This document shows, in pieces, positions 1-16,630 of a stretch of 25,262 nucleotides of DNA. This stretch comes from an uncultured archaeon (GTDB taxonomy: Archaea; Iainarchaeota; Iainarchaeia; Iainarchaeales; CSSED10-239). The position numbers and the translations under genes are program-made. Under the pieces are notes generated by a model. That model saw only the letters and a list, made by a program, of their open reading frames with translations, ran no database searches and was not told where the DNA came from. Location: contig CAZCAP010000011.1 in NCBI GenBank assembly GCA_964496765.1, positions 1 to 25,262 of the forward strand. Reading direction: 5' to 3'. Within the stretch, counting starts at the first letter, position 1. Each line of letters opens with the position of its first letter.

Positions 1-83
1 ATAGTAGCCACAAGAATAACTAGGATAATAGATATTATTTCTGAGATACCCCTCCTACTTCTAAACAATTTAGTTACACTCAT
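1..83 (-). CDS. Archaeal type IV pilin-like protein, 5' fragment only (gene runs off the window start)
   Basis: Reverse-strand ATG at 83..81 reads MSVTKLFRSRRGISEIISIILVILVAT. This is a basic stretch, an RG|IS prepilin-type cleavage motif, then a hydrophobic helix, i.e. a class III signal peptide. It closely matches the N-terminus of the 3724..5232 product (KSKRGISEVITIILVILISV). It is truncated, so it is absent from the ORF track. Confidence 0.7.
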   Translation of the reverse strand, partial: MSVTKLFRSRRGISEIISIILVILVAT

Positions 84-2061: not shown

Positions 2062-3333
2062 ATGATAACAAAGGAAGAATTAAAGAAAATAATTCAAGAT
2101 CAAAAGGAAAGTTTTAATAATAACCAGACATACATAACTAGAAATATATCACTTGATGAATATATAAAGACAGATCCAATTATAATTATAAGTGGAGTTA
2201 GAAGGTGTGGTAAATCTACACTTCTAAAAATTATAAAAGAAAAAATAATTAAAAATAATAAAAATATTAATTACTTATATTGCGATTTCTCTGATGAAAG
2301 ACTTAGCAGTTTAACAGTTTCAAATTTACAAACAATCTACGAAATATTTTTAGAAAAATATGAACCAGGAAAAAAATATTTCTTTTTTGATGAAATCCAG
2401 TATGTAACTGGTTGGGAAAAATTCGTAAATAGATTATATGAAAAAGAAAACGCAAAAATATTCATTACTGGATCAAATGGATCTTTACTTAGTTCAGAAA
2501 TCTCTACCGTTTTAACCGGAAGAAACAAAGTAATAGAACTTTATCCTTTCTCATTTAAAGAATATATAACCACAAAAAAAGAAGTAATAGACATAAAAAA
2601 CTTATCAACTAAAGAAACCATTAAATTAAATAAATATTTTGATAATTATTTCAAGATAGGTGGATTCCCATATGTAGTAAACACTGGTGACACTCAAATA
2701 TTAAAAGAATATTATACAAATATAATTTATAAAGATATAATTAACAGAAAGAAAATAAGACAAGTAAAAGAAATAAAGGAAATAATTTCATTTCTATCAA
2801 ATAATATAGGGCAAACTGTATCATATAATAAAATAATAGATAACTCAAAAATTAAAAGTACAAGTACAATTAAAAACTATATAGATTATCTTAATGAAGC
2901 GTACATTTTATTCACTTTACCTAAATATGATAAATCAATTAGAAAACAAATACAAAATCCAAAAAAAGTATATTTTATTGATATAGGAATGGTAAGACAA
3001 ATAAGTGTTAATTTTTCAGAAAATAATGGATGGTACCTTGAAAATATAGTATTTTTAGAATTATTAAGAAGAAATAAAGAAATATATTATCATAAAAATG
3101 GAAAAGAATGTGATTTTATAATGAAAGAAGGTACAAAGATTAAAGAAGCTATACAAGTATCCTATGAAATAAATAGAAAAAATGAAGACAGAGAAATTGA
3201 AGGATTAATTAGTGCATTAAAAACACATTGTCTTAAAGAAGGGACAATTATAACAAAAGAGCAAGAAGAAATAAGAACAATAGGCAAATATAAAATTAAA
3301 ATAATTCCAATAACCAAGTGGTTATTAGAATAA
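2062..3333 (+). CDS. AAA_14 + DUF4143 family ATPase (COG1373-like)
   Basis: 423 aa. Walker A is GVRRCGKST and the Walker B-like block is KYFFFDEIQY. Overall length and the C-terminal block ENIVFLELLRRN...ECDFIM...IQVSY are typical of this archaeal/bacterial ATPase family. Confidence 0.8.
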   Translation: MITKEELKKIIQDQKESFNNNQTYITRNISLDEYIKTDPIIIISGVRRCGKSTLLKIIKEKIIKNNKNINYLYCDFSDERLSSLTVSNLQTIYEIFLEKYEPGKKYFFFDEIQYVTGWEKFVNRLYEKENAKIFITGSNGSLLSSEISTVLTGRNKVIELYPFSFKEYITTKKEVIDIKNLSTKETIKLNKYFDNYFKIGGFPYVVNTGDTQILKEYYTNIIYKDIINRKKIRQVKEIKEIISFLSNNIGQTVSYNKIIDNSKIKSTSTIKNYIDYLNEAYILFTLPKYDKSIRKQIQNPKKVYFIDIGMVRQISVNFSENNGWYLENIVFLELLRRNKEIYYHKNGKECDFIMKEGTKIKEAIQVSYEINRKNEDREIEGLISALKTHCLKEGTIITKEQEEIRTIGKYKIKIIPITKWLLE

Positions 3334-3506
3334 TATTCATTGTTTTAACTTAAAGGTTAAGTCACCCCTGGCAGAAGGTTATTTCTTCAATGTAATTAAG
3401 AAATGCACCTACTTTTTAACATTGGAATTGACAAAAATATTTTTAAACACAACCAATATATTGGTTATATAAAATACTTATAAACTTAACCAACACATAT
3501 AATTAT

Positions 3507-3577
3507 TTATATACCTAAAATGATTGTTATTACTTCAGAAATCCCCTATTATTTTTAAATAATTTAGTTATACTCAT
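3507..3577 (-). pseudogene. Decayed stub of a pilin paralog (signal peptide only, frameshifted and truncated)
   Basis: Reverse ATG at 3577..3575 reads MSITKLFKNNRGFLK*. Restoring one nucleotide after GG (compare GGTATCTCAGAA in copy 1) gives ...RGISEVITIILGI*. That matches the prepilin N-termini at 1..83 and 3724..5232. The conserved promoter block follows at 3603..3655. Confidence 0.65.
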
Positions 3578-3623
3578 TCATATCCAGTAAAGTAGTTATA
3601 TATTCCCCTATATTATATGTTAA

Positions 3624-3655
3624 TATAAAACATAGAACTATTAAAAATATTATGA
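3624..3655 (-). promoter_or_regulatory. Conserved pilin-gene upstream motif (copy 2, serving the pilin stub)
   Basis: ATAAAACATAGAACTATTAAAAATATTATGAT aligns with 131..163 and 5286..5318. The adjacent TTCCCCTATATTATAT at 3603..3618 is identical to 108..123. Confidence 0.4.
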
Positions 3656-3723
3656 TAGGGGAAATTAAAAATAAAATTTATTAACACACTATATTTAGAA
3701 AATAAGAGATTGAATAGATGTTT

Positions 3724-5232
3724 TTAAAAAGATCTAACACATCTTATCCGCATGTTTTCAATTTTATTATAAAAATTAATTTCATCAGCATAAAAAACCC
3801 AATTATAATGATACAGATTGCTATATTCTGAAGATGTTGCATAATATCCAAGATTAGTAAACCCACCAATGGCAGCTCTATTTAAATAAAATTGGCGGAA
3901 TTCATATAAACTTGGTAAATACCAATCAGTATATCCATTTAAACTCAGATTATCACAAGTTCTTGCAGCAATTCCAGCAGTAGCACAACCATTTAAAATA
4001 TCTGTTGTATTTTGTTGCCCGGTTCCAATTGCTGTTCCATCTGCACCACTTAAAGCTGTTCCGCTACAACCCCATGGAGATTGAGTTTGATCGCTTGTTG
4101 GAGCTATTAAACCATGTTGTACTCCTGCATTATAACCAGCATCACCGGATTGTAAAATATAGGCAATAATTCCACCCTGGTAACTCATACCAATGGAAAG
4201 AGGAGTTATAGTATATGTTCCAGTGTATACAGAACTATTCGTATATCCACTCTTTGTAGCTATTGCTTTCAATGTTGTTGTTGAACCAATACTTATTGGA
4301 GAGGAATAAACTGAACTTCCTGTTGTTGGTGTACTTCCATCTGTTGTATAATAAATTGTTGAACCAGAAGTTGTTGAACTTAAGGTTACACTTTGAGCAG
4401 TTGTAAATGCACCTGCTTCGAGTGAAGCAACAGGAGTTGATAATTGATGTGTAACAACATAGGTTGCAGTATATACAGGACTTGGTGCATAACCAGGCTT
4501 AACTGCAATTGTTTTAATAGTTGTTGTTGAGTCTTCTGGAAGAGAGATTAAATCTCCAGAATACACACTACTTTCAGTGGTTGGTGTTGAGCCATCGGTT
4601 GTGTAATAAATGGTTGCACCATCTGGTGAAGATAAAACAAGATCTTGAGATTCATAATAATTATCTTCTGTTAAAGAAAAAATAGGATAGGAAACAACAG
4701 GAACTTCTCCTGAACAACCAGATAAGCTTATTGCTTGATTAGGACAAGTTTTATTTGTTAAAATCATACTTTCTATTTGATCAAAATCTAAAGATGCAAC
4801 AACATAATTTTCCTTAATAACATCAAATGAATCAAGAGTTGTATTTAATTCTTTAAACTCTCCTCTCTTAACCACATCATCAAAATAACCAACATAGGTA
4901 ATATCTTCTCCAGTAAATGTTTTTGATTTAACAGATAAAGTAAATCCACCATAATCTAAAGAAGTGCTATTAATTAGATTTATTGAAAATTCTTTAGTAC
5001 CAGTATTAATTGAACAGGATTCAACCTTAAGATTACTGTTTGCACAATCAAGCTCACTTCCCTTTGTAAAAGCACGACTTGCATTAGAAGAAGTATCTAA
5101 ACTCTTTTTAGTTATGTTTTTTCCATAGGCTAAAAAAGTTGCGATTAGAATAACACTAATAAGTATGACTAGGATGATTGTAATAACTTCCGAGATCCCC
5201 CTCTTACTCTTAACTAGTTTTTTTAGATTCAT
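3724..5232 (-). CDS. Pilin-like surface protein: class III signal peptide, Cys-containing N-domain, two CHB_HEX_C/Fn3-associated-like repeats, and a DUF1566 (Lcl C-terminal-like) head
   Basis: 502 aa. The N-terminus is MNLKKLVKSKRG|ISEVITIILVILISVILIATFLAYG. There are two ~80-aa repeats with the signature G(A/S)TIYYTTDGSTPT...SSVYS...T(I/L)K(T/A)IA.K.GY. The C-terminus (aa ~347-502) reads GGIIAYI...HGLIA...WGC...IGTGQQNT..IL...AA..C..L.LNGYTDWYLPSLYEF...RCVRSF, the DUF1566 pattern. Confidence 0.85.
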   Translation of the reverse strand: MNLKKLVKSKRGISEVITIILVILISVILIATFLAYGKNITKKSLDTSSNASRAFTKGSELDCANSNLKVESCSINTGTKEFSINLINSTSLDYGGFTLSVKSKTFTGEDITYVGYFDDVVKRGEFKELNTTLDSFDVIKENYVVASLDFDQIESMILTNKTCPNQAISLSGCSGEVPVVSYPIFSLTEDNYYESQDLVLSSPDGATIYYTTDGSTPTTESSVYSGDLISLPEDSTTTIKTIAVKPGYAPSPVYTATYVVTHQLSTPVASLEAGAFTTAQSVTLSSTTSGSTIYYTTDGSTPTTGSSVYSSPISIGSTTTLKAIATKSGYTNSSVYTGTYTITPLSIGMSYQGGIIAYILQSGDAGYNAGVQHGLIAPTSDQTQSPWGCSGTALSGADGTAIGTGQQNTTDILNGCATAGIAARTCDNLSLNGYTDWYLPSLYEFRQFYLNRAAIGGFTNLGYYATSSEYSNLYHYNWVFYADEINFYNKIENMRIRCVRSF

Positions 5233-5285
5233 TCATTATTCATTAGTATTTTATATTTATTATAAAATATATATTATCTATTAAA

Positions 5286-5318
5286 ATAAAACATAGAAGT
5301 ATTTAAAAATATTTGGAT
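5286..5318 (-). promoter_or_regulatory. Conserved pilin-gene upstream motif (copy 3, upstream of 3724..5232)
   Basis: ATAAAACATAGAAGTATTTAAAAATATTTGGAT aligns with copies at 131..163 and 3624..3655. It lies about 55-85 nt upstream of ATG 5232. Confidence 0.45.
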
Positions 5319-5452
5319 GAATTAAAATTTTAAAAAAATAATATAATCTATGGATTAATCAATTTTATTCATAAACAATCGTTTAAATAAATAGACACTA
5401 AATTTAAAAACTAAAAAAAATTAATTAAGATAATCTAAAATGGGTTTTATGA

Positions 5453-8400
5453 TTATCCTGTGCTAGGTGGTACAACAGTTATAGATTGTAATTCCAAGAC
5501 ACCAGAACCAGAACCATAGAAATAAGGACTAACTCCACCATATGATCCAGCCCATTGATTAACCCAAGTTACATTTCCACTTGCATATGGGAATGGTGGA
5601 CGACTACCATAACCATCAGCTAAACAATGAAATGATGCACCTCCATTATCTACACCCACACAATAGGTTGTATTCGGACTAAGCACATAATTAATATTCA
5701 CTTCTGTTGTATTGGTAATTGGAGCAGATGCTAAATTTGGACCAGTACAAGAACCAGCACGTAGGAATCCATGAGTAGGCGATGTTCCCCATTGATTACT
5801 TGCAATCTTAATCTGAGTTATCTTTAATGTTTCACTACTTGTAGTAAAAGTGTCACCACATTCTTGGACCCCCAGTGCACCTCCATTAACACTTGGCCAA
5901 TATGGATTTGTTCCTCTCATTTCTTGTACAACCGGTGTTCCCCAGTCCTGCTGAACACAATATAATGCACATGAAAAACCACATACTCCTCCAGCCATAT
6001 TCCATAACCAACCACCTTCTTTGTGATCTAAACAATCTAGTGAACCTAATATACCAGATGTACTTGATGTCCAACTATTACAATTAAATCCAGAATATGA
6101 TCCGCCAGTTAGATTATCACCTGTACAAACATATCCTGTTTGAGTAGTTCCTGTTTCAGTAATACTAAAGTTTGCTTTTAGATTTCCATAGGTGTGCCCT
6201 GTCCAGAAATCAGCCCAATTATCAGCAATGGTAACTCCATCTAATCTTTTATATGGCACTGATGAATGTGAAAATCTAGAGGTTACTGAAGTTGATTCAC
6301 TGCTCAACCATGCCTTATATGCACCAGGTAATCCAGCAGCCGTTGCTGCTGCTTGACACTTTGCATCAGCTCCAGCCAATCCACCAAGGGTTGCACCAGT
6401 CCATTTGGATGCAGTAACAAACACATATTTAGAGCTTGCAGTATCTGTAAATAAAGGATACTTAATTATTACTATACCTGAACCACCATTAGCTCCTCCT
6501 GTTCCACCATATCTACTACCACCAGCACCACCACCACCAGTGTTTGCTACACCAGCATAGGCAGTCAAAGTTACTGAATCATGATTACCTCCACCACCAG
6601 TACCACCTGGATAAACAGCAGATCCATAATAATAAGATCCTGCACCACCACCAGCAAACCAACCTGCTGGAGACCCACCTACACTTGAAAATTGAGAATA
6701 TTGTAATCCATCTCCACCAGTAAATGGTCCATCAGTCATACCAGCTTCTGAAGCACCACCACCACCACCGCCATAAACACCGCTACCATATGAACCAGCA
6801 TATCCTTGTCCAGATACTCCACTTCCACCAGAACTTTGTGCAGAGCTTCCATCAGCTGCTCCTCCACCTCCACCAGAACCACCAGCACTACCAGGCATAT
6901 AACTCCCACCTCCACCAGCACCACCACCAATTGCAGTTAAAGTTCCGAAAATACTATTACCACCATTTGTTCCAGGACCAGCAGTATAATATGGAGTAGA
7001 CCCAATACCACCAGCACCAACAGTAACTGGATAGGCCTGAGCACTTACAGCAACGTAATCATACAATAATCCTCCGGCTCCTCCACCACCACCTCTGTGT
7101 CCTGATCCTCCGCCTCCACCACCAGCAACAACTAATGCCTCAACAGCACCAGAGAAGGTTGGGGTGAATGTTCCATTTGATGTAAATGTACTAATACAAT
7201 AATTTCCACTTACTGTTATTGTTCCTCCAGTAGCAGGACAAACTTTATAGGTTCCTGAATAAACACCACTATTTGCATACCCACTTTTAACAGCTATTGC
7301 TTTCAAGGTTGTAGTTGCATTTAATGTGATTGCTCCAGAATATAATGTACTCCCTGTTGTTGGAGTATCTCCATTAGTAGTATAATAAATTGTTGAACCT
7401 GCTTCTCCTGATAGAGTTATGTTTTGTGGAGTTGAATAATCACCAGCAACTGGTGAAGTTGTTGGTGTTGATAAAGTGTGTGTGACTGTAAAGGTACCTG
7501 AATAAACTTCACTATCTGCATATCCATTCTTTACAGAATATGCTTTTATTGTTGTTGTTGTATCAAGTGGAACAGAGATTGCTCCTGAATATAATGTACT
7601 TCCTGTGGTTGGTGTACTTCCATTAGTAGTATAATAAATTGTTGAACCTACTTCTCCAGATAAAGTCACACTTTGAGCAGAAGTGAATGAGCCAGCGGAA
7701 GGTGATGCAACAGGAGTTGATAACTGATGTGTGGTTGTGTAAACTCCACCAGAATATACTGCACTATCTCCATAACCTTCTTTAACTGAGAATGCTTTAA
7801 GTGTTATTGTTGTGTCTCCAGGAACAGAAATTCCTGTTGAATAAACAGAACTTCCAGTAGTTGGATCAGAACCATCAGTTGTATAATATGTTGTTGAACC
7901 TTCTTCAGTTGATAATGTAATTGTTTGAGCTGAAGTGAAATTTCCTGCAGCAGGAGAAGCACTTGGAGTTGCAAGAGTGTGAGTGATTGTAAATGTTCCT
8001 GAATATATAGGACTATCCCCATAACCACTCTTAACTGCTAATGCTTTAATATTCATGATTGTATCAATAGGAACATTAATTGCACTTGAATAAACTGAAC
8101 TTTCTGTGGTTGGATCTGAACCATCAGTAGTGTAATAAATTGTTGAACCTGCTTCTCCAGATAAGGTTACATCTTGAGCAGCATAAACAAAAGTACCAGC
8201 AACAGGAGATGCAACAGGAGTTGCAAGTATATGGGTTGTAGTAAAGTCACCAGAATAGATAGCACTATCTCCATAACCACTCTTAACTGAAAGAGCTTTA
8301 ATTGTCATACTTGAATCTATTGGAATTGAAATTGGGTCAGAATAAACATCATCAGTTATTGTTGGATCTATCCCATTAGTAGTATAATAAATTGTTGAAC

Positions 8401-8689
8401 CCTCTTCTCCAGATAAAGTTACATTTTGAGCAGATGTGTGTGCCCCAGCAACAGGAGATGCTGTTGGGGTTGCAAGAGTGTGGGTGATTGTGTAAACTCC
8501 TGAATAAACAGAACTATCTCCATACCCACTCTTTACTAGGATTGCTTTTATTGTCATTACTGTATCTATTGGGATATTAATTGGATCAGAATAAATATTA
8601 TCAGCAGTTGTTGGATCTGAACCATTAGTAGTATAATAAATTGTTGAGCCTTCTTCTCCAGATAAAGTTATATTCTGTGTTGTTGTAAA
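5453..8689 (-). CDS. C-terminal 1078 codons of an interrupted giant pilin-adhesin: six more stalk repeats, a glycine-rich domain, a DUF1554-like domain and an unknown Cys/Trp-rich C-terminal domain
   Basis: The frame is open from 8689 and is the same frame as 8690..9766 (both codon starts are 1 mod 3). The track's ATG at 8557 falls in the middle of a repeat (DTVMTIKAIL) and has no signal peptide. Repeats carry the signature LSGE.GSTIYYTT(N/D)G. Numbering by the track's 1034-aa ORF, the Gly-rich block is aa ~475-700 (VVAGGGGGGSG...GGSGIVIIKYP). KYVFVTASKWTGATLGGLAGADAKC...YCVQQ resembles DUF1554. The last ~165 aa are unassigned. Confidence 0.75.
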   Translation of the reverse strand, partial: FTTTQNITLSGEEGSTIYYTTNGSDPTTADNIYSDPINIPIDTVMTIKAILVKSGYGDSSVYSGVYTITHTLATPTASPVAGAHTSAQNVTLSGEEGSTIYYTTNGIDPTITDDVYSDPISIPIDSSMTIKALSVKSGYGDSAIYSGDFTTTHILATPVASPVAGTFVYAAQDVTLSGEAGSTIYYTTDGSDPTTESSVYSSAINVPIDTIMNIKALAVKSGYGDSPIYSGTFTITHTLATPSASPAAGNFTSAQTITLSTEEGSTTYYTTDGSDPTTGSSVYSTGISVPGDTTITLKAFSVKEGYGDSAVYSGGVYTTTHQLSTPVASPSAGSFTSAQSVTLSGEVGSTIYYTTNGSTPTTGSTLYSGAISVPLDTTTTIKAYSVKNGYADSEVYSGTFTVTHTLSTPTTSPVAGDYSTPQNITLSGEAGSTIYYTTNGDTPTTGSTLYSGAITLNATTTLKAIAVKSGYANSGVYSGTYKVCPATGGTITVSGNYCISTFTSNGTFTPTFSGAVEALVVAGGGGGGSGHRGGGGGAGGLLYDYVAVSAQAYPVTVGAGGIGSTPYYTAGPGTNGGNSIFGTLTAIGGGAGGGGSYMPGSAGGSGGGGGAADGSSAQSSGGSGVSGQGYAGSYGSGVYGGGGGGASEAGMTDGPFTGGDGLQYSQFSSVGGSPAGWFAGGGAGSYYYGSAVYPGGTGGGGNHDSVTLTAYAGVANTGGGGAGGSRYGGTGGANGGSGIVIIKYPLFTDTASSKYVFVTASKWTGATLGGLAGADAKCQAAATAAGLPGAYKAWLSSESTSVTSRFSHSSVPYKRLDGVTIADNWADFWTGHTYGNLKANFSITETGTTQTGYVCTGDNLTGGSYSGFNCNSWTSSTSGILGSLDCLDHKEGGWLWNMAGGVCGFSCALYCVQQDWGTPVVQEMRGTNPYWPSVNGGALGVQECGDTFTTSSETLKITQIKIASNQWGTSPTHGFLRAGSCTGPNLASAPITNTTEVNINYVLSPNTTYCVGVDNGGASFHCLADGYGSRPPFPYASGNVTWVNQWAGSYGGVSPYFYGSGSGVLELQSITVVPPSTG

Positions 8690-9217
8690 TTAACCTGGTT
8701 CTGGTGATGCAGTAATTGTTGATAATTGGTGAGTAATTGTATATGTTCCACTAAACACTTCACTATCTGCATATCCATCTTTAACGGAGAACGCATTTAT
8801 GGTTGTAGTTGTATCTGTAGAAAGAGTAATAGGATCTAAATAAACAGAGCTTGCGATTGTAGGAGTTGAACCATTAGTAGTATAATAAATTGTTGAACCA
8901 CTCTCTGATGATAAACTAATACTTTGAGAGGAACTATAGGATCCAGGAGCAGGAATTGATTCTGGAGTAGTTAACTGATGAGTGACCACATAGGTTTCAC
9001 TAACCACTGGACTTGGTGCAAATCCTGGTTTAACTGCAATTGTTTTTACAACAGTTGTTGAATCTTCTGGAAGAATAAATGATCCTGAATAAACCAGACT
9101 ATCAATGGTTGGATCTGTTCCATCAATTGTATAATAAATCACTGCATCTGGATCAGCAGAAATAACAACATCCTGAGAAGCAGAATAGGTATCTCCAGGA
9201 AGTGAGAAAAGAGGTTC
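7244..9217 (-). repeat. Eight tandem ~80-82-aa (~240-bp) domain repeats forming the adhesin stalk; they span the in-frame stop
   Basis: The recurring signature (F/Y)(T/S)(S/T)xQx(V/I)TLS(G/S)ExGSTIYYTT(N/D)GxxPT...(V/L)YS...K(A/T)(L/F/I/Y)(A/S)VK.GY.(D/N)S.(V/I)YSG.(F/Y)T(I/V)TH.L(A/S)TP was counted eight times across the two ORFs. The same repeat type occurs twice in 3724..5232. Confidence 0.8.
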
Positions 9218-9766
9218 TGGAGTGTAATCAACAGTAAATGTACAAAAAGATAAATCAACAACAGAATTTGGACAGGTTGCACTTACTAGGTTTAGAGAAT
9301 AGGATTCATCTAAATCTAAAACACCTAACTCTGCATCCTGTCTAACAATACTAAAAAAATCAGAATCCATTGACAATAATTTAGAACTACCGCTATTAAC
9401 ATTTGTTTTAAATAAACCAATTACAGACATGTTCTGTCCATAAATATCTTTACCAAGTACAGATAATGTAAAATTAGCAAAATCTTCTGTTGAATTATTT
9501 GTAATTAAAAAATTCACTTTTTTTGTGATTGTATTAATTGTACAAAATTCAATTTTATATTTTGCATTCTTACATTCTAATTCAGATAATACTTTTAGAT
9601 TTTCAGTAGTATCATCTAATTGTGTTCTCATTGAATTTTTTGACCAAGCAAGAATAGCACTTACTAAAATTGTTGCAATTAATATAACTAAGACTATTAC
9701 TATGATTGAAGAAACTGCTTTCTTCTTATTCGCTGCCCTAATTGTCTTATTGTGCTTATGCTTCAT
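8690..9766 (-). CDS. N-terminal 358 codons of the giant pilin-adhesin: class III signal peptide, N-domain and two repeats, ending at an in-frame TAA
   Basis: The N-terminus is MKHKHNKTIRAANKKKA|VSSIIVIVLVILIATILVSAILAW. The N-domain (ELECKNAKYKIEFCTIN...TCPN) is paralogous to that of 3724..5232 (ELDCANSNLKVESCSIN...TCPN). The ORF terminates at TAA 8690..8692, in the middle of a repeat unit. Confidence 0.8.
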   Translation of the reverse strand: MKHKHNKTIRAANKKKAVSSIIVIVLVILIATILVSAILAWSKNSMRTQLDDTTENLKVLSELECKNAKYKIEFCTINTITKKVNFLITNNSTEDFANFTLSVLGKDIYGQNMSVIGLFKTNVNSGSSKLLSMDSDFFSIVRQDAELGVLDLDESYSLNLVSATCPNSVVDLSFCTFTVDYTPEPLFSLPGDTYSASQDVVISADPDAVIYYTIDGTDPTIDSLVYSGSFILPEDSTTVVKTIAVKPGFAPSPVVSETYVVTHQLTTPESIPAPGSYSSSQSISLSSESGSTIYYTTNGSTPTIASSVYLDPITLSTDTTTTINAFSVKDGYADSEVFSGTYTITHQLSTITASPEPG

Positions 9767-9893: not shown

Positions 9894-10247
9894 CTATACC
9901 CATTTAAACCTATCGTTAATTTTAACAAAATTAGACTTTACCTTGATAGGCATCTCAAGTATGTATTTCGCTGGTCTTTTTGAGAGATAAAACCAAAAAG
10001 GAATTGCTTTTTTTTTGATATCAACAACTTTTTTGTTCTTGTCAAGAAAAATAACTTTAATTGGATAGAACACAAACATCATGTGTATTGATGAACCAAT
10101 TATTGATTCTGTTGGTCTTTCAAAAATCAAACAATAATCAAAATATTTTCTTCTTGAGAACATGAGTCCAAGGGCTTGTTTAAATTCAGTATCTGCAATC
10201 TTAACTTTCTTAATAATCATTTTTTTCTTAGTTACATTGTACAGCAA
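9894..10247 (-). CDS. DUF192 family protein
   Basis: 117 aa. IADTEFKQALGLMFSR, IHMMFVFYPIKVIFLDKNKKVVDI and AKYILEMP match the DUF192 pattern (A.t...r..GLM; M.n..ipLDiiFld..g.Vv.i; yvLE). Confidence 0.7.
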   Translation of the reverse strand: MLYNVTKKKMIIKKVKIADTEFKQALGLMFSRRKYFDYCLIFERPTESIIGSSIHMMFVFYPIKVIFLDKNKKVVDIKKKAIPFWFYLSKRPAKYILEMPIKVKSNFVKINDRFKWV

Positions 10248-10348: not shown

Positions 10349-11494
10349 TCACAATTCAACAACCACATAATAATAAATTATATATCTTGCTCCATCTTTA
10401 ACAATATTAAAATTATAAAAGGTTGCATCATTTACAAGAATAGTGTATTTTGCACAATTAAGTTTACACTCCCTATCATCTCCCGCAATAAAGTAAACCT
10501 CTTCAATTCCAACCCCATCACTTATGTACTTAGAACTAATTGACTCAAGAGATATTATCCTATCAAGAGTTATGTTTTCTGCACCAGTTAATTCCATGTG
10601 ATTAATACTTTCAACTAGAACATCAGCAGCCGTTGGTTTTGGAATGAACACCTGAAATAAAATAATAACAATAATAAAAAAGATACCAATGTATTTCAAG
10701 AATTCAATACTCTTTCCACCTTTTATGGAATGCATAACAAAGGCAGTAAAGAAAGATAATAGCAAACCAATATACAATAGAAAGTTATCAATAAACAACC
10801 TAGTTACTAAATCAGTATTTGAATACCATAAAAAGTTTCTACCAATCAATACATCAAAGTAAACCAAAACAAACAAAAAGATAATAAAAAAAACAATTGC
10901 TAAATAGTAGAGATTCTTAAAATATTTTTTTTTAAGATTCTCTTCCTTATAAATAGAAATGTCCTTGGAAATGTTTAATAGAACCCTGTTTAGAGGAACA
11001 TCACTTGTTTTAAATGTGTCCAGCAAAACAAGAGTGTGATTAATTATTGGGCTCTTAATTTCTTGATTAATGGATAATAGAGCATTATAAAGATCATCAC
11101 CCCAGGATAGCCTGGTTGCCATTCTTCTTACTTCAGAATCTATTGAACCATAGATATTATTGTTAGAGAGGTTCGTTAATGCAATTGCAAGGTTCTTTGT
11201 TGCCTTTTGCTCTCTTGAAAGATCCTGAAGAAAATACCCAAATTCTGCTTCAATTGATTTTCGTTTAGTGTATTTAATAACATATTCCAAAAGAAACCCA
11301 AGTGAACAAACAACAACACCAAATATTAATAATAGATAATAGATTGAACTAAGAAAGAAAAATCTATTTGTTATAAAAATAATTAATAATCCAGAAAGAA
11401 TACCAGCAATTTCAAGTATATCATATTCATGACTATAAAAGAATAGCATGAACTTATCTTCTAGCTTGTTTGCTTTTAATTTGTTTTCAACCAT
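10349..11494 (-). CDS. T2SS-F/FlaJ/TadC-like pilus platform membrane protein with a ~95-aa extracytoplasmic C-terminal domain
   Basis: 381 aa. After N-terminal TM helices comes a cytoplasmic helical block, EAEFGYFLQDLSREQKATKNLAIALTNLS...EVRRMATRLSWGDDLYNALLSINQEIKSP...LL. This is the T2SS-F pattern (fp.fl..la....G.sl..Al...l..G.....Al). More TM helices and a soluble tail follow. It lies next to the ATPase homolog and the peptidase. Confidence 0.65.
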   Translation of the reverse strand: MVENKLKANKLEDKFMLFFYSHEYDILEIAGILSGLLIIFITNRFFFLSSIYYLLLIFGVVVCSLGFLLEYVIKYTKRKSIEAEFGYFLQDLSREQKATKNLAIALTNLSNNNIYGSIDSEVRRMATRLSWGDDLYNALLSINQEIKSPIINHTLVLLDTFKTSDVPLNRVLLNISKDISIYKEENLKKKYFKNLYYLAIVFFIIFLFVLVYFDVLIGRNFLWYSNTDLVTRLFIDNFLLYIGLLLSFFTAFVMHSIKGGKSIEFLKYIGIFFIIVIILFQVFIPKPTAADVLVESINHMELTGAENITLDRIISLESISSKYISDGVGIEEVYFIAGDDRECKLNCAKYTILVNDATFYNFNIVKDGARYIIYYYVVVEL

Positions 11495-11522
11495 AAATTA
11501 TCTTCACTTAACTTAAATTTCA

Positions 11523-12365
11523 TTACTTGAATAATATTACCACTAGAACAAACTCCACAATAGGGAATATTATTGCAATAAACATTAATAAACTTCTTAT
11601 TGTTTCCATATCTAGAGGAATTAAAAATATACTTGATAAAAGAATAATCACGAAAAAGAATAAAAATATGTTAACTTCAAACAAAAGATTTATGCTTGAT
11701 TTCTTTTGCTCGCTAGCTTCTTTTCTTAATTGCTCAAGACTTGTTAAAAACTCACTAACCACCTTTCCTATCTGGTCCCTATTATCAATAACATCAATTA
11801 ATCTTCTAAAAAAATTCTTTTCAAGCTCAGAATAGGTTTCCCTAATAACCTGACGAAGAGTATCCTTAAGATTCAAATTAAGATTTGAAACTGTTATTAT
11901 TTTTTTTGCTTCTTCACTTAGTAACTTATTGTTCTCTAATTTTTGTAATATGTTTAATATGTCCTTTATGGTAAGTGCCTTATCCTCTAGAACAGATAGG
12001 TGCCTTATTGTGTTTTCAAGTTCGAAATCTATTTCTTTCTTCTTGGACTCAAGTATATAGTAGGGAAATTTACAGAGTAATATGAAAACTAGGCTTGCAA
12101 AGGTAAAGGATAATAAAAGAGTTATAAAAAAGGAAAACATATTAAATAAAATATTTAGTTTGACCATAACTAGAATAATTCCAAATTCAATTAATAAAAA
12201 GAGCAAGAAAGAAGTTAATAAAACATTTGAAAGGTATGTAATTGCATCTTCATTTATGTTTGCATAGGTAAGCACTTTTGTGAAATTCTTGAATCTATTT
12301 TCAAATGTTGAAACTAATTCCCCAAAAAGGTATGTGGATAGTTTCGTAAATATTTTTCCAAACAT
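11523..12365 (-). CDS. T2SS-F/FlaJ/TadB-like pilus platform membrane protein (first half of a split FlaJ)
   Basis: 280 aa. The order is TM helices, a helical cytoplasmic block (IDFELENTIRHLSVLEDKALTIKDILNILQ...LKDTLRQVIRETYS...FFRRLIDVID) and C-terminal TM helices. Together with the 381-aa neighbour it approximates the length and two-domain layout of archaeal FlaJ/TadC proteins. Confidence 0.6.
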   Translation of the reverse strand: MFGKIFTKLSTYLFGELVSTFENRFKNFTKVLTYANINEDAITYLSNVLLTSFLLFLLIEFGIILVMVKLNILFNMFSFFITLLLSFTFASLVFILLCKFPYYILESKKKEIDFELENTIRHLSVLEDKALTIKDILNILQKLENNKLLSEEAKKIITVSNLNLNLKDTLRQVIRETYSELEKNFFRRLIDVIDNRDQIGKVVSEFLTSLEQLRKEASEQKKSSINLLFEVNIFLFFFVIILLSSIFLIPLDMETIRSLLMFIAIIFPIVEFVLVVILFK

Positions 12366-12396: not shown

Positions 12397-15300
12397 TTAT
12401 GCAAGTAAATCTATTCCTAGTCTTTTTACAACCTTATCTTCATCTATTAAAAACTCTGTAATTATACTATTAAAATCACGATAGTCTGCTATATTTGTAT
12501 CACTCAACCATCTCATGTATTTCTTTCTTTTATTGAAATTAACAATATCAATTGTGGATGATAATAGGTTTAAATGATAGGCCCTATCCTTAGTTGAAAG
12601 CTCAACAGTAATAAAATCATTCCTATCTACAATTTCTTCAATTTTAACTATTTGAGTGGTTTCATTAAACCCAAGTTTTAATTTTTTGAGTTCAATTATA
12701 ATTGCTTTTTGACCCATATTTTTCATATTTTCTCTTAGCTGTGGAATCTGACTATAGTTCACATAGCAGAGATTAATTGAATACCAAGGAATATCAAATA
12801 TATCACTTCCAAACTCATCCACAAATATATAATCTGGTCTCTCTGATATTGTGTGTTGGATAATTGTTTTTTTATCAATATCCTCTGATCCAGTAACCAC
12901 TCTTTTTATCCATTGTTTTTGTGGAAGTTTAATTCTATCATAGGACTGAATAGATATTATTTTTTTATCAGGATATAATAAGCCCACTGAATTCAAGAAA
13001 ATAAAAGAAGTATCATCTCCTGTTAATATTACTTTATAATCTTCACTTATTGCACTCCAAATGTATGCAAAAACATCAATAGTTCCAACTCCTGATTTAA
13101 TTAATGTAACTGGGGTTAATGGTGCTTCAAGATATTTCTTAATAACAAATGAAGAGCCCTTGCTACTTAGATCTCCTGCTGAGAATAATCCTTCAACCTT
13201 GTAGCCGTTTGGAAGATAACCTTCAATTATTGGGTGTGCAGAATTAACATACATGCCCATGTTCTTTGTTAGAAGAAGAACAAATTGGTTTAGTTTATTT
13301 ATGTTATCAAAATTTATATTTGTTTCTAGAGTACCATAATCTAGATGATAAACAATCACACTTGTTTTCTCTCCTGCACAGGAAACCTCAAGCACTTTCT
13401 TATCTGACAATAGTGCAGTCAATATTCCTAGTCCTGAAAACTCTCTCTGTATGAACTTATAAAATAATTTCTTATCAAGTGAATTTACCTGGTAGGCTAG
13501 CTTTGATATTGCAATATCAAATATTTTTTTTGTGTATTGCTCAAGAGTATATTTATCTCCACTAAATGTATAATAATTTTGATCAATGGAATTAAAGAAT
13601 ATTTTCTTAATCTCATAGAAGACCTTATTCTGTTCAGGAGTTAGATCAAGTTGCACCATGTTATAGAATAATCCCTTATCTTTGACATAGGAGATTGTAA
13701 CATAGGTGAACTCATCAAGAGCATACTTTTCAAAAACCTTTGTAACATCCAAATCAATTACATTCATTGGTATTGAATAAACCAGAGATTGAATTTTGTC
13801 TTTTTCAAAATTAAAGGCACGAGGGGTTGAGTATACTCCTTCTTGTCCAACAAATCCTGCATTCTTAAAAGAATCAGCTCTTGCATCCTTTGGAAGAATA
13901 TAGGACATTCTTTTATCCTTTGGGCTAGGAGCAACATCTTTATTAAGATAAACCTCACTTTCTGCTTTTGGCTCAATCTTTGGGAGTTGGGTTTGTAAAT
14001 CAACTACCTTTACTTCAGTTGGCCTATTCCTCTCTTGATTCATAAATATATTTAATTTTGCTTTTTCTTCTTCCAACTCTTTTTCAAGAACAGATATTCT
14101 AGGATCTGGTTTTGAAGGCACCTGCTCAGGAGATGCTTCTTTTTTGCTTTCAACAAAAATATTTATATTTTGCTTTTTTGAAGGATCTTGTTTTTTATAA
14201 TCTTTTTCTTTTTTTAATTTATTTTCATTTAATCTTTGTAGATTATCTTCTACCTTTTTATTCAGTTCTGGTCCTGATTTGGTATCCACGAAGGTTGGTA
14301 TATGCATGTCCTCCTGGCGAAGTTCCATTGATTCACTAAACTTATTATTAACTAAGCTATCAATGTCTGCGATATTATCTTTAATGGGAATAATTTCTGG
14401 AATAGTTAATTCTTCAATAATTGCATCTGTGTTTAGTTCCTGTTCTAGTTTCTTTCTTGAGCTTAATATTTGTTTTTTATCTAAGCTTTTTTCTTTTTCT
14501 TCCTGAGTTGCAATTAATTTTGCTTTTGCAAGTTTTGAAAGATCATCAATCTTTGAATAAAGATTTTGAACATTATAGGTTTTATAGGATATCTTACTTA
14601 CCTTAGGGAGTTCACCAGTGAAGCTATACAACTCAAGCATAGCATCATCAGAAATTAATGTTTTGGTTCTTCTATCAAGTTCAGATAATAATTCATTTAT
14701 ATCTTCAACAACAATTATTTTCATTTTTGGTTTTTTATGAATTTGTTTATTAATTTTATCAATATTTTTTTTATCCTCAACAACAACAGTAACATCTTCT
14801 AAATCTGCCTTGGTATATCTTTTATTTAGAGTTTCTTCTATTTCTTTTTGTATGCTTTCCTGGAGATTCCTTTGCTGTCTTTCATGGAATTGTTTTTCTA
14901 ATGTTTCTGGGAGTTTATCCAGAGGAATAGACATTGGAAGTTCATGCAATTCATCAGGTTTGAAATCATAAATTTCTGATGGTAACTCCTGAGGAATAAC
15001 AATTGGAAGCTCCTGGGGAATAACAATTGGAAGTTCCTGAGGGATAACAATTGGTAACTCCTGAGGAATAACTTCTGGAAGTTCCTGAGGGATAACAACT
15101 GGTAGTTCCTGAGGAACAATTACTGGTAGCTCCTGGGGAACAATCATTGGTTCCTCTACACTAGTCAAATCTGGTTCTTCTCTCAATAGTTTAGGTTCTG
15201 GTTTATCTAAAGAAGGAGAAATAATTGGTTTATCTAGTTCATCAAATATATCTTTGGGAACTGCAGTTACTGGAATTATTGGTTTTTCTTCTGGATAATT

Positions 15301-15795
15301 TTTCTTGACCTTTGAGACAATCTTTTCTGATTCTAATTCTTTTGGGATTGGCTTTTCCAGAGGAGGAGAAGCTAATTTATTTTCATCAACATCATCTAAT
15401 TTAATTTTTTTAATCTCAATAACTGGTTCTGGCTCCTTTATTTGCTCACCTTTATGCAAGGATTTAAAATCAAATAATTTAATTCCAGGAGCTTTGACCT
15501 CATTGAAATCAATTTTATCTTCTTTTGAATCATTTACATCATCTTCAGTAACCGTTATTTTCCTTCTAGCGGTTCTACTTTTCAATGGAGTAAAATGAGT
15601 AATATTTTCATGATGTTCATCCTCAGCAACAGAAATAGAAGAAGATATTTTTGAGGTAATTTCACTAGTTAAATCAATCTTTTCAGAAACAGGTTCATTA
15701 TCTGGCACACCTATGGTTGAATTAATCTTTTTTAAAGTGATACCTGTATCACTGTTCTTGTCTCTTTCATTCGTTGACTTTTTATATTTTTTCAT
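12397..15795 (-). CDS. FlaI/PilB/VirB11-family secretion ATPase homolog with a degenerate P-loop and a ~690-aa low-complexity N-terminal extension
   Basis: 1132 aa. Residues ~690-1132 carry ordered family motifs: [66 protein letters not shown] and [10 protein letters not shown]. The Walker A position reads [14 protein letters not shown] instead of G..GSGKTT.LNA. The N-terminal part is K/E/P-rich and contains the PQELPxVI repeats. Confidence 0.8.
   Translation of the reverse strand: [1132 protein letters not shown]
14974..15147 (-). repeat. 24-bp tandem repeat, about 7 units, encoding (I/V)(V/I)PQELPx octapeptides inside the ATPase-homolog gene
   Basis: Plus-strand units include GGTAACTCCTGAGGAATAACAATT, GGAAGCTCCTGGGGAATAACAATT and GGAAGTTCCTGAGGGATAACAATT. 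The protein reads [59 protein letters not shown] (aa ~217-274). Confidence 0.9.
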
Positions 15796-15889: not shown

Positions 15890-16630
15890 CTAGAGGAATG
15901 CAGAAAAGTATTGAAATATAAATGGAAACCTAAAAACAAATAGAATAATAACTGTAAAAATATAGGACAATAGGATAAGCAAAATAAATGGAAGAAGTGG
16001 TGAAACCCAAACATATTTGATATGGTGTTGCTTTGAAAACTTTTTAAGCCTATTGATTTCCAAGAGTGGATTAAAGTTAGGAATAAATTTAGTTTCTCTT
16101 ACAATCCTACCATTCCTATAGCTTATTTTTTCAAGAGGAGTATTAAACTCATTTAAGCTTGATATTTTCTTAGGAGTTCCAAGAAACATGAGACAAATGG
16201 ATTTAAACAAGGGATAACTTGGATAGTAGCCTCTAAATTTGTTATAGAAAAATAATAAAATAGGAATTCCAAGCATAAATAACAAAGCAAACAAGAAAAC
16301 AACTATAACAAATAAATATGAATACATGCTTGTGAATGCAAGTGCAACAATTGTATAGAGATCGCCTTCACCAAGATATGCAAGCTTGGTTAGTCTCCCA
16401 ATCAAATAAATTATTAATACAAAACCAAAAACAATTGCAATTTGAATAAAGTAACTCTTCCACAAACCAAAATTAAATTGAAACACAAATATTCCTAAAT
16501 AAAAAAGTGACAGAATAGCCAATAGAATAAGATAAGTAATATTTATTTCTCTGGATTTAATATCCTGGTAGGAAACATATCCAAGTAACAAAATTGTTAA
16601 AATAATTATTGGAAGGTAAACTAAACTCAT
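15890..16630 (-). CDS. A24-family prepilin/preflagellin peptidase (PibD/FlaK/EppA-like)
   Basis: 246 aa, polytopic membrane protein. The first catalytic Asp context is YQDIKSREI near the N-terminus. The second is in the GxGD-type motif YLGEGDLYTIVALAF. It sits adjacent to pilins carrying matching (K/R)(G/A)|(I/V)S cleavage sites. Confidence 0.85.
   Translation of the reverse strand: MSLVYLPIIILTILLLGYVSYQDIKSREINITYLILLAILSLFYLGIFVFQFNFGLWKSYFIQIAIVFGFVLIIYLIGRLTKLAYLGEGDLYTIVALAFTSMYSYLFVIVVFLFALLFMLGIPILLFFYNKFRGYYPSYPLFKSICLMFLGTPKKISSLNEFNTPLEKISYRNGRIVRETKFIPNFNPLLEINRLKKFSKQHHIKYVWVSPLLPFILLILLSYIFTVIILFVFRFPFIFQYFSAFL

What the first reader, a model, noticed from the sequence alone, without database searches (positions are those of the whole stretch)
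3724..9766. Pilin-stalk-head architecture: paralogous prepilins carry the same N-terminus and repeat stalk but different lectin-like heads
Both complete genes begin with a class III signal peptide and a ~150-aa paralogous N-domain with conserved Cys spacing (EL(E/D)C.N...(E/K)..(F/S)C(T/S)IN ... TCPN). Next comes the same first repeat (PEDSTT..KTIAVKPG(F/Y)APSPV...TYVVTHQL). They then diverge: one has 2 repeats plus a DUF1566 head, the other has 8 repeats plus a Gly-rich domain, a DUF1554-like domain and an unknown domain. A third paralog starts at 83..1 and a fourth is a stub at 3507..3577. Pilins of 500-1400 aa with C-terminal adhesin-type domains are far larger than ordinary archaeal pilins. 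This suggests either minor tip pilins that present adhesins or cell-surface proteins anchored by a pilin helix. In a putative episymbiotic DPANN-type cell, a head-swapping adhesin array beside its own assembly machinery is an obvious candidate host-attachment apparatus. That functional link is inference.
Basis: partly seen in the sequence, partly recalled or inferred. Interest (0 to 1): 0.7.

Follow-up and report, generated by a model that had tools for sequence, protein, structure and literature searches.

The report
Modular archaeal pilins with stop-interrupted adhesin stalks
A tiny symbiont-type archaeon keeps, next to its pilus-building genes, a set of related pilin genes that carry swappable sticky "heads"; two of the three are cut by a stop codon at one flexible joint, yet the head-coding part behind the stop is still preserved.

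Summary
The described architecture is real, but one key statement is wrong. P1 (3724-5232, 502 aa) is a continuous pilin: N-domain, two Ig-like CHB_HEX repeats and a DUF1566/Lcl-type head. The "1400-aa gene" (5453-9766) is one frame with an in-frame TAA at 8690-8692. It encodes a 358-aa headless pilin, followed by 1078 open codons (six repeats, Gly_rich_2, an endostatin/DUF1554-like domain and an unknown domain). The third paralog (83..1, continued off-window) has the same layout: 356 aa, TAA, then 367 open codons.

The N-domain defines a family of at least 37 cluster representatives. Members are either about 170 aa alone or fused to LamG, RCC1, GLUG, PKD or NHL heads. They sit beside a FlaI-like ATPase, two platform genes and an A24 peptidase. 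Orthologs differ in their heads.

Three P2 orthologs carry independent stops at three different codons of the same 14-codon linker. Sequence downstream of the stops shows purifying selection (omega about 0.24-0.25).

Best reading: these are modular adhesin pilins whose long forms are throttled by a stop in the linker and made only rarely, by leaky termination or reversion. Plain recent pseudogenisation is not excluded. This is a new variant of a known kind, of moderate to high interest.

The parts
1..83 (-). Start of paralog P3 (class III-type N-terminus). It continues beyond the window: 356 aa, in-frame TAA, 367 further open codons (1.5 repeats plus a Gly-rich domain), natural end ...GGSGIVIVRYLN*.
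   Evidence: L001, L107
115..164 (-). Conserved upstream (promoter-region) box of P3. Copies also lie at 3609-3658 (stub) and 5270-5319 (P1).
   Evidence: families D9 and D10
3507..3577 (-). Stub: frameshifted remnant of a prepilin 5' end, with its upstream box at 3578-3660.
4678..5232 (-). P1 residues 1-185: leader KSKRG|ISEV, hydrophobic helix, and a beta-sandwich N-domain with four conserved Cys.
4201..4677 (-). P1 stalk: two CHB_HEX_C_1/Fn3_assoc Ig-like repeats.
3724..4200 (-). P1 head (DUF1566/Lcl_C-type domain) and the TAA stop.
9197..9766 (-). P2 residues 1-190: leader KKKA|VSS, helix and paralogous N-domain.
8693..9196 (-). P2 stalk repeats 1-2 and most of the linker (..TITHQLSTITASPEPG).
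8690..8692 (-). In-frame TAA in the linker between repeats 2 and 3. The ortholog in L014 has TCA (Ser) here.
7217..8689 (-). P2 stalk repeats 3-8, open frame behind the stop.
6458..7183 (-). P2 Gly_rich_2 domain. It also matches phrog_2295.
6038..6400 (-). P2 endostatin/DUF1554-like domain (below the Pfam cut-offs).
5453..6004 (-). P2 C-terminal domain of unknown family, shared with the L014 ortholog, and the stop codon.
9894..10247 (-). DUF192 gene, conserved between the platform genes and the pilins in related loci.
10349..12365 (-). Two platform-protein genes (T2SSF; FlaJ/ArlJ-like).
12397..15795 (-). FlaI-like secretion ATPase with a long repeat-containing N-terminal extension.
15890..16630 (-). 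Archaeal A24 prepilin peptidase (Peptidase_A24 plus Arc_PepC_II; FlaK-like).

Best explanation
The region is the pilin array of an archaeal type IV filament locus. The locus has a FlaI-like ATPase, two platform genes and its own A24 prepilin peptidase, in an AT-rich DPANN/Woesearchaeota-like archaeon.

The pilins belong to one family. It is defined by a class III-type leader, a ~40-residue hydrophobic helix and a ~120-residue beta-sandwich with four conserved Cys. This module is a complete pilin on its own (165-180 aa members). It can also be extended by Ig-like CHB_HEX 'stalk' modules and a variable binding 'head', making an archaeal counterpart of bacterial modular pilins.

In this genome P1 is a continuous pilin with two Ig modules and a DUF1566 (Lcl-type adhesin) head. 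P2 and P3 are stopped by TAA in or just after the linker behind Ig-2. Their default products are therefore 358- and 356-aa headless pilins. These resemble the naturally headless 343-aa ortholog of P1 found in a related genome.

The stalk-plus-head coding sequence behind the stops is kept open and constrained. I infer that a stop in this linker is selected as a throttle. Most subunits would be short. Head-bearing long subunits would be made only rarely, most likely by low-level readthrough of the stop. They would then be incorporated as minor adhesive subunits.

Shown: gene anatomy, family membership, linkage to the machinery, head exchange, recurrence of linker stops, and constraint downstream of them. 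Inferred: cleavage and assembly into a filament, readthrough, and adhesion to a host. My confidence in the identity and architecture is about 0.85. My confidence in the leaky-stop mechanism is about 0.35. The single figure given for this explanation (0.4) refers to the whole statement, mechanism included.
For: Architecture and family:
- Pfam domains.
- N-domain homology and conserved Cys.
- An exhaustive profile search found 87 representatives, 37 with E<1e-10. Lengths are bimodal: about 165-180 aa, or 315-2867 aa.
- Heads in the family include LamG, RCC1, GLUG, PKD and NHL.
- Short members are true stand-alone genes.
- Pilin character.
- Machinery: FlaI 3e-33, ArlJ 2.8e-12, FlaK 3.8e-12. Synteny holds in L014/L015 and L019/L020.
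- The P1 head is 55-60% identical to 587 DUF1566 proteins and matches PDB 8q4e, the Lcl C-terminal domain.

Stops:
- Window TAA at codon 359. P3 TAA at codon 357, with the frame open exactly to the natural end of the Gly-rich domain.
- Three P2 orthologs carry three different stops in one linker: H*LSTITASPEPGS (L014, TAG), HQL*TITASPEPGS (L012, TAA) and HQLSTITASPEPG* (window). The frames stay open for 733, 748 and 1078 codons afterwards.
- That linker holds only 1.3-1.8% of the one-step-to-stop mutational paths of each gene.
- L007 and L012 share a TAA directly after the N-domain, at dS 0.41-0.47. Downstream omega is 0.235 and the frame is open for 611 further codons in L012.
- Window against L014: downstream omega is 0.25 at dS 0.7. 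No neutral simulation kept the frame open.
- A natural headless ortholog ends at the same boundary (..TYTINY*).
- None of the other window genes checked against Pfam/NCBIfam or against their L014 orthologs looks truncated.
- No uninterrupted allele is on record in the clusters holding these ORFs.
- Precedent for conserved in-frame stops with dN/dS<1: PMC7918605.
Against: - TAA is normally the most efficient terminator (own knowledge), and it is the usual stop in this window.
- The stop position and its neighbouring bases are not conserved among P2 orthologs.
- No stable RNA structure follows the stops: z-scores -1.0 to +1.2.
- No suppressor tRNA is seen, although only a small part of any genome was available.
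- L010 carries two stops, one inside a domain, and L016 carries a frameshifted paralog. Both look like decay.
- The window and L014 stops are independent, so each could be recent. Their downstream omega then says little about the time since the stop.
- The TAA shared by L007 and L012 could be convergent, because few codons in that linker can become stops.
- There are no expression, proteomic or imaging data.
- The TIGR02537 and Pilin_N scores of the window proteins are below their cut-offs.
Confidence: 0.4

Rival explanations
1. Mutational on/off switching (contingency genes). The head-bearing forms are switched off by nonsense mutations and back on by reversion. The inter-domain linker is the only place where both a stop and almost any revertant residue are harmless. 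The filament is built from short pilins while a gene is off.
For: Three orthologs have different stop codons at different positions of the same linker. The stops replace Gln, Ser, Glu and Tyr codons, each reachable from the stop by a single base change. Heads are gained and lost between close relatives. No readthrough signal was found.
Against: There are no repeat tracts or invertible elements at the stops, so switching would depend on rare point mutations. Every long-stalk copy sampled is in the 'off' state, and no 'on' allele is on record. L007 and L012 share a stop across dS of about 0.4 while keeping the downstream sequence constrained.
Confidence: 0.2
2. Ordinary recent pseudogenisation. 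The heads are being lost. Only truncations at domain boundaries survive, because the remaining product must still be a working pilin. The dead downstream DNA simply has not yet decayed or been deleted.
For: A headless ortholog with no downstream remnant exists. L010 has two stops, L016 has a frameshift, and the window has a stub. The window and L014 stops are independent and could be young. A boundary filter would explain the clustering without any function for the downstream part.
Against: Five lineage-gene combinations each keep 367-1078 codons open with no second lesion, in AT-rich sequence. If downstream were neutral, I estimate each stop would have to be younger than about 2% neutral divergence. 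That figure is my own arithmetic, assuming roughly 4-5% of substitutions create a stop; it was not computed by a tool. The TAA shared by L007 and L012 at dS 0.41-0.47 comes with downstream omega 0.235. GC3 behind the stop equals GC3 before it.
Confidence: 0.25
3. Not filament subunits. These are cell-surface proteins that use the class III leader and helix only as a membrane anchor or short stalk, as in the Sulfolobus bindosome (own knowledge). The T4P-like machine serves only for their export and display.
For: Very large sizes occur in the family (up to 2867 aa). A bulky head is hard to fit in a filament body (PMC8179133 argues for tip location). A separate small PF04021 pilin lies next to P3 and could be the real major pilin.
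Against: The ~170-aa stand-alone members of the same family look like typical major pilins. The arrays sit directly after the ATPase and platform genes in several genomes.
Confidence: 0.2
4. The sequence downstream of the stop is a separate gene, translated on its own, or a silent cassette used for recombination into expressed copies.
For: Gene callers list a 1034-aa ORF starting at an internal ATG. The repeats could support recombination.
Against: The ATG lies inside a repeat. The 44 codons between the stop and the ATG are conserved as protein among orthologs. There is no signal peptide or hydrophobic start. Repeat DNA identity is only 60-79%, which is low for homologous recombination. Each copy has its own promoter region and N-terminus.
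Confidence: 0.07

Closest known systems
Bacterial modular type IV pilins (Streptococcus sanguinis PilB with a vWA module, PilC with a concanavalin-like lectin module; PMC8179133, PMC9934059)
   Same: An N-terminal pilin module is joined by a linker to a grafted binding module. Many architectures exist. The proposed role is as minor, probably tip-located, adhesive subunits.
   Different: These are archaeal, with a class III leader cleaved by an A24 FlaK/PibD-type peptidase. The pilin module is a distinct four-Cys family. There is an Ig-like CHB_HEX stalk of 2-9 modules. Two of the three copies are interrupted by a stop in the stalk linker. The 2021 survey text does not mention archaea.
Archaeal type IV filament 'system 1' / Epd-type loci (bioRxiv 10.64898/2026.04.22.720090)
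   Same: ATPase, a platform protein split into two genes, a dedicated peptidase and many pilins. Class III-signal proteins with adhesin-like or galactose-binding domains are reported. The system is reported in methanogens and some DPANN.
   Different: I did not classify the ATPase phylogenetically. The N-domain family and the CHB_HEX, DUF1566 and Gly-rich heads are not described in the passages I read. The ATPase here has a ~700-aa N-terminal extension.
Legionella pneumophila Lcl adhesin C-terminal domain (PDB 8q4e) and bacterial DUF1566 proteins
   Same: The P1 head model matches 8q4e (E 2.8e-8, TMt 0.76). The head is 55-60% identical to Bacteroidota-type DUF1566 proteins.
   Different: It is carried on a pilin and stalk rather than on a collagen-like stalk or a lipoprotein. 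The Pfam score of the window protein itself is below the cut-off. The ligand is unknown.
Readthrough-extended structural proteins (e.g. Qbeta A1 minor coat protein; own knowledge) and conserved in-frame stops in prokaryotic genes (PMC7918605)
   Same: An abundant short product and a rare C-terminally extended product would come from one gene. Purifying selection persists behind an in-frame stop.
   Different: No readthrough has been demonstrated. The stops are mostly TAA, with no conserved context or RNA structure. The stop position shifts within the linker between orthologs.
Type IV pili of episymbiotic Saccharibacteria (PMC12206443)
   Same: An ultrasmall symbiont uses T4P and several pilins for host binding.
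   Different: That system is bacterial and experimentally shown. Here the link to a host is inference only.

Membership tests
Archaeal type IV pilin (class III signal peptide) | Short basic leader ending in [KR][GA], followed by a ~20-residue or longer hydrophobic stretch | tested here: met
   P1 is ..KSKRG|ISEVITIILVILISVILIATFLAY and P2 is ..NKKKA|VSSIIVIVLVILIATILVSAILAW. Against the FlaFind pattern as I recall it, P2 fits, while P1 and P3 have Glu at +3. FlaFind itself was not run.
Archaeal type IV pilin (class III signal peptide) | Score at or above the curated cut-off of TIGR02537 or PF07790 | tested here: inconclusive
   P1 scores 17.4 bits against 20 (TIGR02537) and 17.5 against 25.2 (Pilin_N). 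P2 has no hit. Family member P0035 passes at 25.9. The family profile hits solved archaeal pilins 9myg and 8gi2 at E 5e-4.
Archaeal type IV pilin (class III signal peptide) | Long N-terminal alpha-helix followed by a beta-rich globular domain | tested here: met
Archaeal type IV pilin (class III signal peptide) | Encoded with an A24 prepilin peptidase, a secretion ATPase and a platform protein | tested here: met
   Conserved in L014/L015 and L019/L020.
Archaeal type IV pilin (class III signal peptide) | Leader cleaved and protein polymerised into a filament | not testable with these tools
   Needs biochemistry or cryo-EM.
CHB_HEX_C_1 / Fn3_assoc repeats | Pfam score above the gathering cut-off | tested here: met
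   133.8, 128.2 and 334.3 bits against a cut-off of 22, giving 2, 2 and 6 stretches.
DUF1566 / Lcl_C (PF07603) | Pfam score above the gathering cut-off | tested here: not met
   27.1 bits against 34.9.
DUF1566 / Lcl_C (PF07603) | Full-length homology to recognised members and the same fold as a solved member | tested here: met
   587 homologs were found. The top hits have E of about 1e-50 and 55-60% identity over 98-100% of the head, and all carry PF07603. The model matches 8q4e_A at E 2.8e-8, TMt 0.76.
DUF1554 / Endostatin (C-type-lectin-like) | Pfam score above the gathering cut-off | tested here: not met
   21.3 against 27.5 and 24.2 against 29.4. phmmer against PDB endostatin chains gives E 3e-6. 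No structure was predicted for this domain.
Gly_rich_2 (PF21722) | Pfam score above the gathering cut-off | tested here: met
   75.8 bits against 24.3. The domain is also present in P3, L010 and L012.
Programmed stop-codon readthrough genes | Open reading frame behind the stop under purifying selection | tested here: met
   Omega 0.235 behind the TAA shared by L007 and L012. Omega 0.25 for window against L014. Frames stay open for 367-1078 codons.
Programmed stop-codon readthrough genes | Stop codon position and context conserved among orthologs | tested here: inconclusive
   Conserved in L007/L012. In the P2 orthologs the stop stays in the same linker but at three different codons and with different contexts.
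Programmed stop-codon readthrough genes | Stimulatory downstream RNA structure or a dedicated suppressor tRNA | tested here: not met
   Fold z-scores of -1.0 to +1.2. The only tRNA seen is tRNA-Arg(CCT). Whole genomes were not available.
Programmed stop-codon readthrough genes | Extended protein detected | not testable with these tools
   Needs proteomics or ribosome profiling.
Phase-variable contingency loci | Hypermutable repeat tract or invertible element at the switch, with on and off alleles in populations | tested here: not met
   There is no simple repeat at the stops. Only stop-bearing alleles are found in all assemblies and clusters. Read-level data were not available.
Diversity-generating retroelement target | Nearby reverse transcriptase and a template/variable repeat pair in the head | tested here: not met
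   No RT was found among the window ORFs. No repeat pair involves the head at 3724-4200 beyond chance-level matches.

The most novel reading that the evidence does not exclude
A stop codon placed in the flexible linker of a pilin gene is maintained by selection as a translational throttle. Termination gives the abundant headless pilin. Rare readthrough gives a long stalk-and-head adhesin subunit. One gene would thereby set the ratio of structural to adhesive subunits in an archaeal filament. This would be the first case of readthrough-controlled pilus composition, found in a DPANN-type symbiont.
Probability: 0.3. Interest if true: 0.8.

Novelty: new variant of a known kind. Interest (0 to 1): 0.62.

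Why it matters
How DPANN-type archaea recognise and hold on to their hosts is largely unknown. Here a named, searchable pilin family carries exchangeable binding modules and sits directly beside its assembly machine. That gives concrete candidates for host-recognition proteins and a way to compare host-range determinants across metagenomes.

Stops recur in one linker while hundreds of codons behind them stay constrained. This raises a testable question: can archaea use leaky or reversible termination to dose a bulky adhesive subunit? It also has a practical consequence. Automatic annotation splits these genes into a 'short pilin' and an orphan ORF with no signal peptide, which hides the architecture.

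Tried and rejected
- Genetic-code change (TAA or TAG as sense): rejected. All three stops end ordinary genes here (TAA 10, TGA 6, TAG 4). P1, P2 and P3 themselves end in TAA at natural domain ends.
- Assembly error: rejected. The TAA is identical in four assemblies.
- RNA structure after the stops: none.
- Suppressor tRNA: none in the window or in 11 related loci, but these cover little of any genome.
- Rfam: only a tRNA.
- Bacterial-type promoter and terminator scan: counts no different from shuffles, and not suited to archaea.
- DGR targeting of the head: no RT and no template repeat.
- Recent horizontal transfer as the cause of the higher GC of the heads: rejected. GC3 is as low as in the rest of the genome (0.10-0.18), so amino-acid composition explains it.
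- Independent translation from the internal ATG at 8557: rejected (see rival explanations).
- Searches that found nothing: the N-domain in GTDB species genomes and in viral contigs; the C-terminal unknown domain by word-indexed search.
- The first word-indexed N-domain search found only 3 proteins; the exhaustive search was needed.
- A literature search for 'HbP1' was uninformative.
- Orthology of the P3 stop with the second stop of L010 is ambiguous, because the repeat numbers differ. I did not use it as evidence.

Full report
**Setting**

The window is AT-rich (22-47% GC). It carries archaeal markers: NMD3, a beta-CASP nuclease, and an A24 peptidase with the archaeal Arc_PepC_II domain. An aminoacyl-tRNA synthetase in the window is 64% identical to one from an 'uncultured archaeon' MAG and 46% to a Candidatus Woesearchaeota genome. 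A DPANN-type origin is therefore plausible but not proven.

The source contig is about 64 kb. It was recovered from two lake-type metagenome samples by several assemblers.

**Checking the observation**

P1 (3724-5232, minus strand, 502 aa) is as described. It has a basic leader and hydrophobic stretch, an N-domain with four Cys, two CHB_HEX_C_1/Fn3_assoc repeats, and a C-terminal domain hitting Lcl_C/DUF1566 below the Pfam cut-off.

The second 'gene' (5453-9766) is a single frame of 1438 codons, but codon 359 is TAA (8690-8692). The mechanical ORFs are therefore 358 aa and a 1034-aa ORF that begins at an internal ATG. The same 120 nt with the TAA is present in four assemblies. The 358-aa product is also on record in NCBI and Logan. 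TAA is the commonest ordinary stop in the window.

- 2+6 repeats;
- Gly_rich_2, well above its cut-off;
- an endostatin/DUF1554-like stretch below the cut-offs, though phmmer to endostatin chains gives E 3e-6;
- a terminal ~180-aa domain with no family.

The paralogy is real. The globular N-domains align without gaps at 36% identity, E 2e-25. The three paralogs share four invariant Cys and the first repeat.

The third paralog does start at 83..1. The 'stub' at 3577..3507 is a frameshifted remnant with a copy of the upstream region.

**The third paralog has the same interruption**

I followed P3 off the window in L001 and L107. L107 covers the same sequence with 1 mismatch in 1971 nt. P3 reads 356 aa (N-domain plus two repeats), then TAA where the repeats normally have Gln. 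After that come 367 open codons: one and a half repeats and a Gly-rich domain, ending ..GGSGIVIVRYLN*. Beyond that point stop codons become dense.

So only one of the three paralogs in this genome is an uninterrupted pilin-stalk-head gene.

**What the N-domain is**

An exhaustive profile search of 1.8 billion representatives found 87 proteins, 37 of them with E<1e-10. Lengths are bimodal:
- Many are 165-180 aa and end a few residues after the second Cys pair.
- The rest are 315-2867 aa. After the same N-domain they carry LamG/ConA-like, RCC1, GLUG, PKD, NHL or CHB_HEX modules.

I checked the DNA of several short members (L016, L019, L022, L103). They are true stand-alone genes followed by non-coding sequence, sitting in arrays with head-bearing paralogs.

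The family N-terminus resembles archaeal type IV pilins:
- The window proteins score just below the TIGR02537 and Pilin_N cut-offs, while a family member passes.
- The family profile hits solved archaeal pilins by sequence.
- The AlphaFold model (pLDDT 87.7) has a 42-residue N-terminal helix, a beta-sandwich, and then two further beta-sandwich domains.
- Foldseek of this three-domain model returned only generic Ig-array adhesins. The libraries that might have tested the N-domain fold alone were unavailable.

The neighbouring genes are a FlaI-like ATPase, two FlaJ/ArlJ-like platform genes, a FlaK-like A24 peptidase and a DUF192 gene. The same order recurs in L014/L015 and L019/L020. This matches the 'two platform genes, many pilins, own peptidase' type of archaeal filament locus described for methanogens and some DPANN (bioRxiv 10.64898/2026.04.22.720090).

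**The heads**

- The P1 head has 587 homologs. The best are 55-60% identical over its full length, all carry PF07603, and those that are named come from Bacteroidota.
- Its model (pLDDT 89.1) matches the C-terminal domain of the Legionella adhesin Lcl (8q4e, E 2.8e-8, TMt 0.76). A Bacteroides fimbrial protein comes next, followed by a weak tail of C-type-lectin-like folds.
- The Gly-rich and DUF1566 modules also match the C-terminal parts of large phage proteins: phrog_2295 at 1.6e-44 and phrog_4245 at 1.7e-16.
- GC3 of the heads is as low as elsewhere in the genome, so there is no sign of recent import.

'Lectin-like or adhesin-type head' is therefore reasonable. The ligands are unknown.

**Head exchange**

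Orthologs with 72-87% identical N-domains carry different distal parts.
- P2: Gly_rich_2, an endostatin-like domain and the unknown domain in the window; Flg_new_2 and the unknown domain in L014; Flg_new_2, Flg_new and a Gly-rich tail in L012.
- P3: a Gly-rich end here; Gly-rich, Flg_new_2 and a Sortilin/BNR propeller in L010; a different Cys-rich domain directly after two repeats in L013.
- P1: DUF1566 here; nothing in L011/L014 (343 aa, natural stop); a long stalk in L012; nothing at all in L103 (170 aa).

**The recurrent stops**

The three P2 orthologs come from three diverged lineages (dS about 0.6-0.7 between the window and L014). Each has one in-frame stop, at three different codons of the same 14-codon linker between Ig-2 and Ig-3:
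- TH*LSTITASPEPGS (L014, TAG);
- THQL*TITASPEPGS (L012, TAA);
- THQLSTITASPEPG* (window, TAA).

The frames then stay open for 733, 748 and 1078 codons. That linker holds only 1.3-1.8% of each gene's one-step-to-stop mutational paths. Three independent hits there by chance are very unlikely: about 4e-6 for this particular linker, and of the order of 1e-4 for any one window. Both figures are my own arithmetic.

The stop in L014 leaves a C-terminus (..TYVITH) equivalent to the natural end of the headless 343-aa pilin (..TYTINY*).

A P1-like gene in L007 and L012 has a TAA directly after the N-domain. That is exactly where stand-alone pilins end. The two copies share this stop although they differ by dS 0.41-0.47. 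Downstream omega is 0.235, against 0.064 upstream. The frame stays open for 611 further codons in L012.

For the window against L014, omega is 0.15 upstream and 0.25 downstream. No neutral simulation with the observed number of differences kept the 482-codon stretch open.

None of the other window genes checked against Pfam/NCBIfam or against their L014 orthologs looks truncated.

There are also signs of real decay in the family. L010 has two stops, one inside a domain. L016 has a frameshifted LamG paralog. The window has the stub.

**Interpretation**

The identity is well supported: these are modular pilins of an archaeal type IV filament system with exchangeable binding heads.

For the stops, the data require two things at once. 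Termination must be tolerated or favoured specifically at domain boundaries. The downstream coding sequence must also be retained. Three models fit to different degrees.

- (a) A stop kept as a throttle, with rare readthrough giving a minor long subunit. This explains why every sampled long-stalk copy carries a stop, why none has a second lesion, and why a shared stop coexists with downstream constraint. It lacks any conserved context, RNA structure or direct evidence, and TAA is a poor candidate for leakiness.
- (b) Point-mutational on/off switching. This explains the shifting stop position. It predicts 'on' alleles, and none was seen.
- (c) Recent loss with a boundary filter. This explains the clustering and the decayed examples. 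It requires many very young events and convergence in L007/L012.

I rank them (a) about 0.35, (c) about 0.25 and (b) about 0.2. A general precedent for conserved in-frame stops with dN/dS<1 in prokaryotes exists (PMC7918605).

Whether the proteins polymerise or are merely anchored by the pilin helix is also open.

**Comparison with what is known**

'Modular pilins' are established in bacteria: more than 1,200 proteins and 264 architectures, with vWA and ConA-like lectin modules, and a probable tip location (PMC8179133, PMC9934059). Archaeal filament loci with class III-signal proteins carrying adhesin-like domains have also been noted (bioRxiv 10.64898/2026.04.22.720090). Pili joining ultrasmall cells to hosts have been imaged (PMC7906910) and shown genetically in Saccharibacteria (PMC12206443).

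The window therefore adds a new archaeal family and architecture to a known kind. The linker-stop pattern is an unusual variant worth testing.

**Verdict**

This is a new variant of a known kind. Interest is 0.62. The figure rests mainly on the recurrent, boundary-specific stops with conserved downstream coding, and on the family as a handle on DPANN host recognition.

Noticed in passing
window 232-300 and 1967-2035: Two identical 69-nt blocks. Each holds two tandem copies of the 27-nt imperfect palindrome AAAGTGTTCGATACTAACGAAAGCTTT (4 exact copies, 0 expected by chance). One block lies 235 nt upstream of the AbiEi-like ORF (535-1209). The other lies 27 nt upstream of the AAA_14/DUF4143 ATPase (2062-3333). 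This may be a shared operator or promoter, or a cassette boundary.
   Followed up: partly
window 154-3542: A plus-strand block (AbiEi-like ORF, AbiEii toxin, AAA_14/DUF4143 ATPase) sits between two 83%-identical copies of the pilin upstream region and 5' end (49-153 and 3543-3647). The stub may be a by-product of an insertion or duplication that split the pilin array.
   Followed up: partly
window 14980-15151 (inside ATPase gene 12397-15795): Seven tandem 24-nt units encode PQELPxVI repeats. They lie in a ~700-aa N-terminal extension of the FlaI-like ATPase, which is 1132 aa here and 1073 aa in L014.
   Followed up: no
L107 2338-2691 and 7152-7841 (same genome, beyond the window's left end): Directly after P3 lies a 117-aa PF04021 Class_IIIsignal pilin (KGQ|ISIE) with a Cys-rich C-terminus. 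L010 has a similar one. About 5-6 kb further on is a DsbA-like thioredoxin, which could form the disulfides of these Cys-bearing pilins.
   Followed up: no
window 6458-7183 and 3724-4200: The Gly-rich domain matches phrog_2295 (E 1.6e-44) and weakly a tail-fibre-assembly phrog. The DUF1566 head matches the C-terminal end of phrog_4245 (E 1.7e-16). These binding modules are shared with large phage proteins.
   Followed up: partly
L016 2120-4350 (also L017): A LamG-headed paralog (P0007) is split by a frameshift into two overlapping ORFs. This is another interrupted head-bearing pilin in a related genome.
   Followed up: partly
window 9894-10247; L014, L016, L020: A DUF192 gene is consistently placed between the platform genes and the first pilin. 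In L020 it is itself split into two ORFs. Its role in this filament system is unknown.
   Followed up: no
window 3724-9766: The pilin genes have lower GC3 (0.10-0.18) than the machinery and housekeeping genes of the window (0.19-0.26), despite higher overall GC.
   Followed up: no
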